From Perna viridis (taxonomy: Eukaryota): a stretch of DNA of 64,000 bases. The stretch spans positions 25,512,995 through 25,576,994 of the forward strand of contig CM074523.1 in NCBI GenBank assembly GCA_037379345.1, in the 5' to 3' direction. A program made the position numbers. Below, one piece after another: positions 12,001 through 64,000 of the stretch. Position 1 is the first letter of the stretch, and each line of letters opens with the position of its first letter.

Positions 12001-15000
12001 TTTCTTCTAAACTTCATTCATATTAACGACCTCTACCTTCTCAATCCGAACATTCAGTCCAAAAGAGCTTCGGTTTAGACAAGTTTCAAAGTGTGCTAGA
12101 GGACAAAAAAGCACTAGCAGTATGAACACCTATAAAATAGATGTTCCGGGAGGGTAAACATGTTCTGCTCCGCCAGTGGTACTTGTCATACTGCAGAAGA
12201 GTACAATTCGGTGACAGTCCACCTACAATAATGCAACTTGCCTTCATGAATAAATGATTCATGCATATCTTTTTGTCCAAAAAAAAACCAATTATACGGT
12301 AACCATACATTTCTGTTATAAATGAAAGTTCCTCTGAAAGGTAATTTGTTTAGTAGATAAACATAGCAAAATTTTAGCGGGGTTCTATTAAAAAGGACCA
12401 ATTAGTTTCCCGCCATTTTGCTCTGAAACCAATCGAAAATTAGCTCAAAATATAACAGCAGACTTCTTCTTGTTGGTATTTAATATCCAGAGGCTCTTTT
12501 AAGTAAATCTAAGGTAATTAAGATTCAATAATAAATAGGTGGCGTAATACCCCTTGCATGATTCATTTTTTGGCTATACACTGGACTATGTCAGTATTTA
12601 TATACATCGATCGTTTGAATTTTTATGTGAAAGACATGTCATTATCGTGATTAAATGACCATTGTGTGACCTACTTTTGTTCATGAATGAAGTATTATAA
12701 CACAAAAACCGAACTGATAAACTACAACAAATGACAGTATCACGGTTTGAACCAGACATTTGGAAACCATTTGTCCTGACTTGGAACGGTCATTTCGTTT
12801 GAAAGTTTTTGGATGAACTAGGTTTGGCAGCGCGCCTAACCTCTCGCTTCCATTACAGTTCATTTTCCCGGTATATAAAATATAAACAGGCAGCATTAAA
12901 TTGCCCCGGCTATAGTTGGTAAATTAATAACCAAAACAGTACAGAAGATAAGATAAACTAGCCACATTCATAAGGTGAAAAGGACCAAGTACAATGAAAA
13001 TACAAGGACATGCAATATAAAGAATGCACCTTCTGTCGAACCAGCGAAAGATGCCTTCAAAATAGATCTTGAACAAATGTTTATAAATTATAGGTAGAGA
13101 CCATCGGAGACGCCTATATGGTAGTATCTGGACTGCCAACCCGGAACGGAAACGATCATGTTCGACAGATTGCAATGATGTCTCTTGATATACTCCGAAA
13201 TGTAAAACTCTTCAAAATTCGACATTTGCCTGACAGATGCTTGATGGCAAGGATTGGAATACATTCAGGTATTTTACAATATAAGTTTTATAGATTCGTT
13301 TTTTTTACAACATAGGTACATTCGGAATTTGATCATTAGATAAATACAATATAATCGAGATTATAAAACATTTAGTGAATTTTTTACAATATGAGTTCAT
13401 CTCATACGGGTATTCTATAATATATTGTATTAACAAGATCAGACATAAAGCTAAATATTTTGGTCTGATTTGTAATAAATGTTCTCTTGTCACGTCCGTC
13501 CGATGTCATACCATAAGACTAAGAAAACAATACAGATAACCCCGAAATCACGGTAATTTGACTGTATTTTTTTTATTCCCCTCCTGAGTTTGGAGTTTAG
13601 TGGTTGTCCTGACAACCATATATTTATCTTGGTACTCTTCAATTGTTTGTCTGTCAACAGAATACCCCATGTCAAAATTTTGATGAACATAACGGTTTTG
13701 GAGATATATGCAACATTTCTGTTTGACCCCTACGTTCTATTTGTTAGTTACGGTGGCCATATTTTTTATAGATAAAAATACCCAATAAGTTTGGTTCTCA
13801 AGTAGTTTCAGATCAAATGATTTTTGAAAAAAGGGCTGTCAACCCCCTGCACCCCCTTCTGGATCAGCTGCTGGCAATATTGTGTTTTATCCATTTATAT
13901 GTAGTTTTGTTTCTTTCAAGGGCCAGTTTGTGCTGGAGTAGTCGGTTCAAAGATGCCCCGCTATTGTTTGTTTGGTGACACAGTTAATACAGCTTCAAGA
14001 ATGGAATCTCATGGAAAAGGTAAGATTTTCCAGACTGAAAATCCATGAAAATTAGACCATTTATAAAAGAATCTCATGGAGAAGATTTGAAGCTCTAGGA
14101 TGGAATATAATAGTAAAAGGTAAGAGTTTCAAGAAAGGAATTCCACGGAAAATAGAAGCTGTATTTTGCAACCCAGTGGGAATGATGATCATGAGAGGTT
14201 TCAAAATTGAATCGTAGGACACGATAATAGTTTCGAGAATATAATTCGGTGGAAGAGTTAAGAATGCAGCCTCACGCGAACATAAGATTTTCCCGAATGA
14301 AATTCAAAGGAAGAGGTTAAAATATTCATAATGGGAACCAATGAATTAAGAGGCTCCAGAATGGAATCGCAATGGTAGCGATACTATTTCCATAATCTCA
14401 AAATAAAGGTAAAAGTTTTAAGAAAAAGATTCCCTTTACAATTTCAGAATTTTGATGTAAATTGTGTACAAGTCTTGCAATACAAGTAGTTTTAAAAAGC
14501 GACGTCCCAAGACGTCAATGCATCAATCAATATTAGTTAGGAACAATCTCATTGGTTGGTTCTCTTTAATTAAACTAGGTTTTTTATATAACCTGGCTTG
14601 TTACCATGACGCCATTAACGTCGATTGGCCCACATATGACGTTTTAATTACTTATCAATTATAAAAATTTGGACTGTGAATACCATAATATCTTTTACGT
14701 AGAAAAGTGTTAGACACCTATTCCAATTATTTTCATTTCGATTTGTTTAGTAGCACTAATGGTTGAAACTTAAGATCTCCTAATGAGATCAAACATAGAC
14801 TATTCTGCATTACAGTTCAAAGGGAAATACGATTTATTGTAACGTTGTTATTGGGGATTAGTTAATAAGTCTCTAACAACTCATGCAGAAATCGTGACAT
14901 CCATAATGCTTAGTTAATACATATATAACGTACGGGAAATTCAAGAATCATCGGGTAAGAGCACTAAGGCTAATAGCCGTACCATAGGATGATTGTAGTC

Positions 15001-63000: not shown

Positions 63001-64000
63001 AATTTTAAAATCTCAATTTGAGATTTTTCTTATGGAACCGGGTCTAGGACCTACATGTAGATGAAAAGATTTTGAAGGTCCTAAATCAGCAATTTGAGGG
63101 CCCTTAACCATGAACCTACATTTATTTGAACCCCACAGAGTGATTCCATATTTAATGTACTGACCTAGCCAAAAGTCTACAATTGATAAATGATACAGGC
63201 CTATTTTGGCCAAAAAGTGTTCTTGACTTACCTGGTACCTTATCCTCTTGGTACAGTCAGCACATTATATATGGCTATGTTAGGTTATTTTAATTTGAAT
63301 GTCTCCATATTAGAGTACAGACTTCATCAAAATGTTATGATATAGGTCACTTTTGTCCACAAAGTGTTACCACATCCTCTGGGCTAAAATGGACCTGTTA
63401 GTTTATTTTTATCTGAATGGCTCTGAATATTACACACACTGACTTATATGCTTCGGTCCAAAAAGTGTTCCGGACTTACCTCATCCTCTTTGCTATCAAA
63501 GTGAGGTTGGATCATACCAAGGGACTCCATCAGTTCATGTAACTCATCCTTGTTTTCAATACCAGCAAGGTATGCCAGAGTTTCCTTTGCTTCATCTCTC
63601 AAATCCTCCTACAATGGATGTTAAAGGTCAAAGGTGAGAGTTCACATCACATCAATGACACTCATGACAGAAAGCAGTTAAATAGGAAATCAATCGACTG
63701 ACATGACAAAAATAAAACACATTTTCAACTTAAAGTACAAGATGAAAAATCTTTTCTAAAATCAAGAATAAACAGGCAGACAGATAATTTGATTGCAGTA
63801 TAGCCCATATTCCACATTATTTAATAACATGAACAATAATAAAATACAGAAAAACATCAAGCTTTGGAGTCCAGACAAAAAATATCACAGCCAGCCCAAC
63901 ATAACGAGATGTAATCTTCTGTCAAGAATTCAAAAACTTACAGTATTATGTTTATTGGTGATGTCAATGTCGAGGTTACATAACGCTGTCATTGAAAATT

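What the first reader, a model, noticed from the sequence alone, without database searches (positions are those of the whole stretch)
13991..63495. Window-wide pattern: tandem repeats concentrate on exon-intron boundaries
Five of the tandem arrays I found overlap a splice site and include exonic sequence (13991, 31600, 33123, 34050, 63200), and another abuts the donor at 49685. Boundaries are a tiny part of these 64 kb, so chance overlap seems unlikely, but I could not compute it. Inference: either a mutational mechanism acts at splice sites (transcription- or splicing-linked breaks or R-loops with slippage repair), or such duplications survive because splicing hides them.
Basis: inference. 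Interest (0 to 1): 0.7.

Follow-up and report, generated by a model that had tools for sequence, protein, structure and literature searches.

The report
Tandem repeats copying exon ends, mussel genes
Several short tandem repeats in two mussel-like genes really are copies of an exon end plus its splice signal, but in this window they sit on splice sites about as often as chance allows, so this looks like ordinary repeat growth that splicing tolerates.

Summary
The window is mytilid-like bivalve DNA, not human. It holds a receptor guanylate cyclase gene (+, 12 exons) and the C-terminal third of a large WD40 protein gene (-, 16 exons), giving 54 homology-defined splice junctions.

All five repeats are real and overlap true junctions:
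- **13995-14420:** a decayed array at donor 14019.
- **31571-31934:** 2.3 copies of the last 98 exon nt plus donor.
- **33123-33341:** 4.4 copies of acceptor plus 17 exon nt.
- **33994-35060:** about 21 copies of 33 exon nt plus 11 intron nt, each with CAG|GTAAGG. It overlaps donor 35029, not an exon at 34050.
- **63190-63481:** three decayed copies.

The 49685 case is one stray copy of a nearby 43-nt unit that lacks the splice site.

The claimed concentration is not established:
- Interval permutations give 2-5 observed against 2.0-3.2 expected (p 0.14-0.68).
- Junction 30-mers have local copies as often as intron 30-mers (3 of 54 against 135 of 2177).
- Only a per-event model gives about 3x excess (p 0.012-0.14), and this disappears if three adjacent exons count once.

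Best reading: ordinary minisatellite birth by slippage, tolerated because the outermost copy is spliced. Boundary minisatellites are already described in human genes.

The parts
2226..17933 (+). Gene 1: receptor guanylate cyclase (kinase-homology and cyclase domains). 12 exons in the window: 2226-2330, 3761-3832, 4908-5064, 5840-5983, 6716-6890, 7592-7741, 8797-8920, 11162-11230, 13094-13268, 13921-14019, 15496-15587, 17541-17933 (stop).
   Evidence: Pfam hits of single exons. Local tblastn with long cyclase proteins returned. Junctions read from the sequence. P0022 carries ANF_receptor, PK_Tyr_Ser-Thr and Guanylate_cyc.
20445..63608 (-). Gene 2: C-terminal third (about aa 1285-1885) of a large protein with N-terminal WD40 repeats. 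16 exons: 63608-63480, 62716-62591, 62058-61929, [alt 60307-59924], 55819-55778, 51116-51048, [alt 49802-49686], 40171-40113, 35123-35029, 33139-32998, 31956-31824, 31004-30805, 29114-29038, 26970-26770, 25269-25083, 20609-20445 (stop).
   Evidence: best hits are Mytilus proteins. Local tblastn. Junctions read from the sequence. Pfam of P0006. The two 'alt' exons rest on M. coruscus and M. galloprovincialis gene models only. Exons 55819-55778 and 51116-51048 rest on 9-15-residue matches.
13995..14420 (+). Decayed array seeded by the last ~18 nt of cyclase exon 10 plus its donor (junction 14019|14020). A decoy donor with the identical 9-mer lies at 14119.
   Evidence: Self-alignment 13995-14056 with 14094-14156, 76%, E 2.4e-5, plus weaker collinear matches. 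A 26-nt probe has 5 extra hits of at least 17/26 within 400 nt downstream, against 3 elsewhere on the + strand and 5 on the - strand. Donor 9-mers.
31571..31934 (-). 2.3 copies of a ~133-142-nt unit made of the last 98 nt of exon 31956-31824, the donor and ~40 nt of intron. In copy 2 the donor GT has become AT.
   Evidence: sequence; AAGGTAAGT against AAGATAGGT. Exon confirmed.
33123..33341 (-). 4.4 copies of a 49-nt unit made of 32 nt of intron end (pyrimidine tract and AG) plus the first 17 nt of exon 33139-32998. Three upstream decoy acceptors have an intact AG. The real acceptor is the most downstream copy.
   Evidence: TRF score 258. Sequence. Acceptor list. Exon start fixed by homology.
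33994..35060 (-). About 21 copies of a 44-nt unit made of the last 33 nt of exon 35123-35029 plus the first 11 nt of the intron. The real donor at 35029 is followed by 18 in-register decoys, 16 of which match the U1-complementary 9-mer at 8 of 9 positions. The far end, down to ~34000, is degenerate.
   Evidence: TRF score 1189-1254. Donor scan. Unit table and translations. Identity gradient from 43/44 to 37/44.
63190..63495 (-). Three decayed copies (period ~120-150 nt) of the end of exon 63608-63480 plus its donor. The decoy at 63232 is a perfect 9/9 donor consensus, while the real donor scores 8/9.
   Evidence: Weak collinear self-matches. Unique probe hit at 63207. Donor 9-mers. Sequence.
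48692..49677 (-). Degenerate 43-nt repeat. The array is at 48994-49170, older copies at 48692-48940, and one stray copy at 49636-49677 that begins 9 nt inside the intron after putative donor 49686. The unit contains no splice site.
17733..17897 (+). In-frame coding minisatellite (60 nt = 20 aa, 2.8 copies) in the last cyclase exon. It serves as a comparison for arrays that lie inside exons.
33080..33129 (-). In-frame coding repeat (24 nt = 8 aa, 2.1 copies) inside exon 33139-32998. It starts where the 49-nt boundary unit ends.

Best explanation
These are ordinary minisatellites. They arose by local tandem duplication, through replication slippage or unequal exchange between short direct repeats, of a segment that happened to span an exon end and its splice signal.

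The copy still attached to the exon goes on being spliced. The extra copies fall inside the intron as decoy splice sites and are removed with it, or the rare mis-spliced RNA carries an early stop.

Such events are expected at a modest rate in a genome where 5-11% of the sequence lies in local repeats. Three of the five sit in one repeat-prone 4-kb stretch that encodes a low-complexity protein segment.

- **Shown:** the repeats, their unit anatomy, the junctions, and the chance expectation.
- **Inferred:** the slippage mechanism, which donor or acceptor is actually used, and the fate of mis-spliced RNA.
For: 1. **Anatomy.** Each unit is exon end plus splice signal plus a few intron bases. The array extends only into the intron.
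2. **Direction.** The exon parts are conserved in relatives. NTASRMES is in the cyclase Pfam core. DSQIGS.DS.SQ|IGD is contiguous in three mytilid proteins. So the arrays derive from the exons, not the reverse.
3. **Frame.** Boundary units are 44, 49 and ~133-142 nt with in-frame stops. Exon-internal arrays are 60 and 24 nt, in frame.
4. **Statistics.**
   - Interval permutations: observed 2-5, expected 2.0-3.2, p 0.14-0.68.
   - Per-site test: 3 of 54 junction 30-mers against 135 of 2177 intron 30-mers at >=22/30, Fisher p 0.66.
5. **Clustering.** Exons 35123-35029, 33139-32998 and 31956-31824 are consecutive and have no Pfam family (for the two tested). They are not aligned by the three oyster proteins shown (P0008, P0010; P0009 aligns only part of one). 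One of them contains its own coding repeat.
6. **Precedent.** Minisatellites at exon-intron boundaries that alter introns are described in human genes (PMC2812944, passages read). Bivalve genomes are rich in short dispersed tandem arrays (PMC7492417, abstract only).
Against: - **A per-event null gives an excess.** In this model the chance that a duplicated unit spans a junction scales with unit length, not array length. It gives about 3x excess: expected 0.65-1.9, observed 2-6, p 0.012-0.14.
- **The true per-event expectation may be lower.** Some intron arrays look transposon-borne, with shared flanks at 23379-23481 and 50640-50744.
- **Repeats lie near donors more than expected, in the most lenient set only.** Within 10-100 nt, observed 7-10 against expected 3.0-5.4, p about 0.02-0.03. 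Acceptors are depleted, observed 1-2 against expected 2.9-5.8.
- **Decoy donors in the 44-nt array are not decaying faster than the rest of the unit.** There are 2 mismatches in 135 donor cells against 30 in 525 other cells. One decoy at 63232 is a better consensus match than the real donor. That is not what simple selection against decoys predicts.
- **No RNA data were available to show which sites are used.**
Confidence: 0.62

Rival explanations
1. Anchoring or survivorship bias. Tandem duplications arise evenly, but arrays that include an exon end stay recognisable and can re-expand. One copy is held constant by selection and cannot be deleted, whereas purely intronic arrays decay or are lost. 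This would yield a real but modest excess at junctions without any splice-linked mutation.
For: - The two oldest cases (13995-14420 and 63190-63481) are detectable only because the conserved exon copy gives a fixed probe.
- Identity to the exon copy falls with distance along the 44-nt array.
- The per-event excess is small, about 3x.
Against: - Slower decay of one copy can at most roughly double the time a two-copy repeat stays detectable (inference).
- It cannot be separated from pure chance with 4-6 events.
- The per-site test shows no excess at all.
Confidence: 0.2
2. One reading: a mutational process tied to transcription or splicing (breaks, R-loops, stalled polymerase at 5' splice sites) makes junctions hot spots for slippage duplication.
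For: - Five of the six boundary repeats are at donors. Donors show more nearby repeats than expected in the most lenient set, while acceptors show fewer.
- The per-event model gives p 0.012 in its most lenient form.
- The sense strand of the 44-nt array region is G-rich (GC skew -0.25 on the + strand).
Against: - No excess appears in interval or per-site tests.
- Three cases are adjacent, and counting them once removes significance.
- The G-richness is a property of the amplified unit itself.
- The other strongly skewed stretch (54001-56000) has no junction repeat.
- A 5:1 donor to acceptor split over 26 and 28 sites is not significant (inference from these counts, no test run).
- The window was picked after the pattern was seen.
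Confidence: 0.1
3. The arrays are kept because they work: runs of decoy donors or acceptors bind U1 or U2-associated factors and tune splicing of weak, short exons, or lower the productive output of the gene.
For: - 16 of 18 in-register decoy donors keep 8 of 9 consensus positions, and the donor 9-mer varies less than the rest of the unit (2/135 against 30/525, Fisher p 0.04).
- All three decoy acceptors keep the AG and the pyrimidine tract.
Against: - Most variation elsewhere in the unit sits in four columns shared by higher-order repeat variants, so the cells are not independent.
- The array is young (93-98% identical near the exon), so lack of decay needs no selection.
- One decoy donor is already destroyed (31691).
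- No conservation data from other species could be obtained.
Confidence: 0.06

Closest known systems
Internal tandem repeats (minisatellites) at exon-intron boundaries of human genes in segmental duplications (De Grassi and Ciccarelli 2009, PMC2812944; passages read)
   Same: - Minisatellite-sized units, tens of bp in a few to many copies, lie across an exon-intron junction.
- They lengthen the intron and create extra splice signals.
- Exon-internal arrays encode amino-acid repeats.
   Different: - Those cases were found by comparing recent paralogs, and some create new introns or alternative transcripts with RNA support.
- Here there are no paralogs and no RNA data.
- The host is a bivalve, and one array reaches about 21 copies of a donor.
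[quoted passage not shown]
   Same: A tandem duplication that contains splice signals gives duplicate donors or acceptors. Splicing or nonsense-mediated decay hides the extra copy.
   Different: - In that model the duplication lies within an exon and creates a new intron of the size of the duplication.
- Here the duplications span junctions of existing introns.
- The ends of intron 35028-33140 show no significant likeness to the neighbouring exon ends (p 0.15 and 0.07).
Tandem exon duplication giving alternative or mutually exclusive exons (recalled from memory: Kondrashov and Koonin 2001; Letunic et al. 2002; not seen in any call)
   Same: Exon sequence is repeated head to tail inside a gene, with a pseudo-exon copy in the intron (31571-31934).
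   Different: The units here lack one of the two splice sites. The 31824 unit leaves out the acceptor and the first 35 nt of the exon. The 44-nt and 49-nt units carry 33 and 17 exon bases only.
Short satellite-like arrays carried by Helentron or MITE elements in bivalves (PMC7492417, PMC3879986; abstracts only)
   Same: Short arrays of 40-170-nt units are scattered through bivalve introns. Two intron arrays in this window share a ~105-nt flank.
   Different: The boundary arrays are built from the gene's own conserved exon sequence. They have no other copies in the window.

Membership tests
Boundary-spanning minisatellite / internal tandem repeat | Head-to-tail copies of a unit of about 10-200 nt, at least two copies | tested here: met
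   TRF for 33123-33341 and 34127-35060. Self-alignment and probes for 13995, 31571 and 63190.
Boundary-spanning minisatellite / internal tandem repeat | The unit contains a splice junction that the gene uses | tested here: met
   Junctions are fixed by protein homology, exon by exon. No transcript data from this species were available. Not met for the 43-nt unit near 49686.
Boundary-spanning minisatellite / internal tandem repeat | Copy number varies between alleles, paralogs or species | not testable with these tools
Intron created by tandem duplication of an AG|GT proto-splice site | The intron start resembles the downstream exon start, and the intron end resembles the upstream exon end | tested here: not met
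   shuffle p 0.15 and 0.07 for intron 35028-33140. The arrays may have overwritten any older signal.
Intron created by tandem duplication of an AG|GT proto-splice site | The intron is absent at this position in related species | not testable with these tools
   Only proteins of relatives were available. These show the residues but not the introns.
Tandem exon duplication (alternative or mutually exclusive exons) | The whole exon with both splice sites is repeated | tested here: not met
   each unit carries only one junction and part of the exon.
Transposon-borne satellite-like array of bivalves | Dispersed copies of the unit or of its flanks elsewhere | tested here: inconclusive
   Boundary units have no other copy in the 64-kb window. 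The rest of the genome could not be searched. Two intron-internal arrays do share a flank.
   Interval p 0.14-0.68. Per-site p 0.66. Per-event p 0.012-0.14, or 0.12-0.35 with adjacent exons pooled. One window, chosen after the pattern was seen.

The most novel reading that the evidence does not exclude
In mytilid genomes, exon ends, above all 5' splice sites, may be preferred seeds of minisatellite arrays. Introns would then grow by amplifying their own junctions and accumulate runs of intact decoy donors (here up to about 20). The cause could be a transcription- or splicing-linked mutational bias, or retention because the decoys bind U1.

The evidence here does not exclude a per-event excess of about 3x with donors favoured over acceptors.
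Probability: 0.13. Interest if true: 0.65.

Novelty: new member of a known kind. Interest (0 to 1): 0.3.

Why it matters
If the pattern held genome-wide, it would name a concrete route by which introns lengthen and gain alternative splice sites. It would also tie repeat instability to RNA processing.

As it stands, the window shows clear examples of a known phenomenon. The most striking is an intron whose first ~1 kb is about 20 copies of the preceding exon end plus donor.

These cases matter for gene annotation. Gene predictors and splice-aware aligners can pick the wrong copy among identical tandem donors or acceptors.

They would also make good natural test cases for how the spliceosome chooses among identical sites.

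Tried and rejected
**Searches that found nothing**
- Homology search with the kinase-homology exon 6532-6900.
- Homology search with the putative exon 49804-49685. That exon therefore stays supported by one foreign gene model only.
- Pfam on ten minus-strand open frames: no family.
- Rfam at gathering threshold: 0 matches.
- tRNA scan: 0 genes.

**Readings rejected**
No homolog aligns there.
- **Intron gain by proto-splice-site duplication for intron 35028-33140.** No end-to-exon likeness.
- **Tandem exon duplication.** The units lack one splice site.
- **Transposon origin of the boundary arrays.** No other copies in the window. The genome at large was not searchable.
- **Selection against decoy donors.** No faster decay of the 9-mer.

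**Literature**
- Searches returned no paper reporting a genome-wide excess of tandem arrays on splice junctions in molluscs.
- This covers only the held open-access library and these search terms.
- One search failed on a term format and was replaced.

**Left unchecked**
- Orthologous loci in other mussels.
- Any RNA evidence.
All searches used single exons or proteins that the tools returned.
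Full report
**What the window is**

The 64 kb contain no N and are AT-rich, with GC 0.29-0.39. Single-exon searches place the window in a mytilid-like bivalve. The best protein hits are Mytilus trossulus, M. edulis, M. coruscus and M. galloprovincialis, at 53-85% identity per exon. It is not human.

All protein searches used single open frames or exons. Exons were then mapped by running the returned full-length proteins against the window with local tblastn.

**Gene models**

Gene 1 (+ strand, 2226-17933) is a receptor guanylate cyclase.
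- Single exons hit the protein kinase and guanylate cyclase Pfam families.
- Long cyclase proteins align to 11 exons, plus a terminal exon.
- One of those proteins carries the ANF_receptor, kinase and cyclase domains.

Gene 2 (- strand, 63608-20445) is the C-terminal third of a protein of about 1885 aa. In M. trossulus (P0006) this protein has N-terminal WD40 repeats and no Pfam family in the part encoded here.
- Fourteen exons are supported by RefSeq-type or transcript-like proteins.
- Two further exons (60307-59924 and 49802-49686) rest only on gene models of other Mytilus species. A dedicated search for the second found nothing.

Reading the junctions from the sequence gives 54 junctions: 26 donors and 28 acceptors.

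**Are the repeats there?**

TRF at minimum score 30 gives 101 rows, which merge into 73 arrays covering 4831 bp. Seventeen arrays score at least 50.

A uniform self-alignment (same strand, offset up to 600 nt) recovers all five.

1. **13995-14156 and onward.**
   - The first match is 76% over 63 nt, E 2.4e-5.
   - A 26-nt probe across the donor (14002-14027) has five further hits of at least 17/26 in the next 400 nt. Elsewhere there are three on the + strand and five on the - strand.
   - This is an old, decayed array seeded by the codons for ...MESHGK and the donor.
   - A decoy with the same donor 9-mer sits at 14119.
2. **31571-31934.**
   - The unit is the last 98 nt of exon 31956-31824, the donor and about 40 intron bases, in 2.3 copies at 77% identity.
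   - The second copy still reads SSSTIGGVSDRTTASREK, but its GT has become AT.
3. **33123-33341.**
   - The unit is 49 nt: 32 nt of intron end with pyrimidine tract and AG, plus 17 exon nt.
   - There are 4.4 copies. Three decoy acceptors are intact, and the real one is the last.
4. **33994-35060.**
   - The unit is 44 nt: the last 33 nt of exon 35123-35029 (GQIGSMDSLSQ) plus 11 intron nt.
   - Nineteen units are in register. The real donor and 16 decoys match the U1-complementary 9-mer at 8 of 9 positions, and two more match at 7 of 9. More degenerate units run down to about 34000.
   - Identity to the exon copy falls from 43/44 beside the exon to 37/44 at unit 15.
   - Of 23 sense-strand sites in gene 2 with at least 8/9 consensus, 17 lie in this array.
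5. **63190-63481.**
   - Three weak collinear matches are present.
   - A 41-nt donor probe has a single other hit of at least 26/41 on either strand, at 63207.
   - The decoy at 63232 is a perfect 9/9 consensus, while the real donor scores 8/9.

Two corrections apply.
- No homolog supports an exon at 34039-34131.
- At 49686 the neighbour is one stray 42-nt copy of a 43-nt unit. The array of that unit is 466 nt away, and the unit has no splice site.

**Which came first, exon or array?**

The exon parts are conserved in other species.
- The cyclase motif lies in the Pfam core.
- The peptide across the 35029/33139 junction is contiguous in three mytilid proteins.
- The boundary units have no other copies in the window.

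The arrays are therefore copies of the exon ends, not repeats that were later recruited as exons.

**Is the overlap more than chance?**

They are not: there are 54 of them, and local repeats cover 5-11% of the window.

- **Random placement of arrays as intervals.**

| Array set | Observed | Expected | p |
|---|---|---|---|
| TRF score >=30 | 3 | 3.2 | 0.64 |
| TRF score >=50 | 2 | 2.2 | 0.68 |
| Self-alignment clusters, E<=0.01 | 4 | 2.7 | 0.27 |
| Self-alignment clusters, E<=1 | 5 | 3.15 | 0.18 |

- **Per-site test with identical detection for all positions.**
  - Junction 30-mers with a local copy of at least 22/30 number 3 of 54 (5.6%).
  - Intron 30-mers number 135 of 2177 (6.2%).
  - Exon-internal 30-mers number 19 of 226.
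  - Fisher p is 0.66.
- **Per-event model.**
  - Here an array is born once and the chance of spanning a junction scales with unit length. I think this is the fairer model for arrays born in place.
  - Expected 0.65-1.9 against observed 2-6, p 0.012-0.14.
  - Counting the three consecutive exons as one event gives p 0.12-0.35.
- **Donors against acceptors.**
  - In the most lenient array set, donors have more repeats within 10-100 nt than expected: 7-10 observed against 3.0-5.4, p about 0.02-0.03.
  - Acceptors have fewer: 1-2 observed against 2.9-5.8.
  - Stricter array sets show nothing.

The window was chosen after the pattern was noticed. I conclude that an excess is not established here. 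A modest excess of up to about 3x per event is not excluded.

**How it most likely works**

A segment spanning a junction is duplicated in tandem and sometimes amplified.
- The outermost copy stays joined to the exon, so the mRNA is unchanged as long as that copy is used.
- Use of another copy would add 44, 49, about 100 or 133 nt and meet stop codons, so such RNAs would be unproductive.
- In line with this filter, the two arrays that lie wholly within coding exons are in frame: 60 nt at 17733-17897 and 24 nt at 33080-33129.
- Three of the five cases lie in consecutive exons that encode a Ser/Gly/Asp-rich segment with its own peptide periodicity (DSQIGS, DSLSQVGD, DSGIMS, DSGIG).
  - This segment has no Pfam family.
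  - Oyster homologs hardly align to it.
  - A locally slippage-prone sequence explains the cluster better than a property of splice sites.
- The slippage step and the choice of the outermost site are inferences. No RNA data were available.

**Points that do not fit neatly**

- The decoy donors of the 44-nt array are as well or better preserved than the rest of the unit: 2 of 135 cells differ, against 30 of 525. Most of the other differences sit in four columns shared by higher-order variants, and the array is young.
- All decoy acceptors are intact, and one decoy donor beats the real one.
- How the spliceosome avoids about 20 identical donors is unknown, and is the most interesting open question here.

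**Comparison with what is known**

- Minisatellites at exon-intron boundaries that lengthen introns and create splice variants are described for human genes in segmental duplications (PMC2812944, passages read).
- Tandem duplication of splice signals is an accepted route to new or shifted introns (PMC2891723, passages read; PMC3265369 and PMC4974935, listing and abstract).
  - The present introns do not show that signature.
  - Whether the introns are old could not be tested.
- Bivalve genomes carry many short dispersed arrays, often transposon-borne (PMC7492417 and PMC3879986, abstracts).
  - Two intron arrays here share a flank.
  - The boundary arrays do not look transposon-borne.
- A paper on human introns arising from tandem arrays (Zhuo et al. 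2007) is recalled. It appeared only as a cited title in the hits, and I did not read it.
- My searches found no report of a genome-wide excess of arrays on splice junctions in molluscs, within the held library and without supplements.

**Verdict**

The repeats are real and well defined, and they are new examples of a known kind. The proposed window-wide concentration and the splice-linked mutational mechanism are not supported by the tests possible here. The 'splicing hides them' idea fits as an explanation of tolerance. Orthologous loci, RNA evidence and the genome-wide test stayed unchecked.

Noticed in passing
window 35028-33140 (-): One intron of about 1.9 kb is mostly made of copies of its own two junctions. 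Roughly 1 kb at its 5' end is the 44-nt exon-end-plus-donor array. About 200 nt at its 3' end is the 49-nt acceptor-plus-exon-start array. Only about 650 nt in the middle is unique.
   Followed up: yes
window 40090-40106 and 5087-5107: Two dinucleotide repeats lie just inside introns after donors. One reads (CA)n on the sense strand and starts 7 nt after donor 40113 of gene 2. The other is (TG)10.5, 23 nt after donor 5064 of the cyclase gene.
   Followed up: no
window 23379-23481 and 50640-50744: A ~105-nt sequence (83% identical) lies beside two different intron arrays: the 53-nt array at 22734-23261 and the 37-nt array at 50759-50958. This suggests the two arrays belong to one transposon-like family with variable internal repeats.
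   Followed up: partly
window 6939-7149, 9350-9548, 19451-19658, 20218-20416, 24298-24495, 47893-47969: A ~200-nt dispersed repeat family has six copies in both orientations at 73-85% identity, and is SINE- or MITE-like. One copy lies just after the stop codon of gene 2. No tRNA or Rfam match was found in the window.
   Followed up: partly
window 9608-10102 (+), with 10068-10370, 41987-42280, 43903-44021, 45328-45487: A 164-aa open frame with a YIDD-type reverse-transcriptase-like motif has no Pfam hit. It is followed by a ~300-nt element that recurs three more times in an intron of gene 2 at 87-94% identity. This is probably a retroelement tail.
   Followed up: partly
window 40421-41527 and 42283-43347: A 1.1-kb direct duplication at 80% identity, with a further pair at 41680-41993 and 43345-43653. 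This is a larger segmental repeat inside the long intron between exons 49802-49686 and 40171-40113.
   Followed up: no
window 54242-55015 (-): A 257-aa open frame rich in Gly, Lys, Glu and Ser lies on the sense strand of gene 2, in a stretch with strong strand skew (GC skew -0.28 on the + strand). It has no Pfam family and no convincing homolog alignment. It may be an unannotated exon, a transposon remnant or chance.
   Followed up: partly
window 34127-35060 (-): The 44-nt array has a higher-order period of about 134 nt, or three units (best TRF score). Two unit variants differ at four columns. One variant reads DSHSQ, the residue state seen in the M. trossulus protein, whereas the exon copy reads DSLSQ.
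   Followed up: partly
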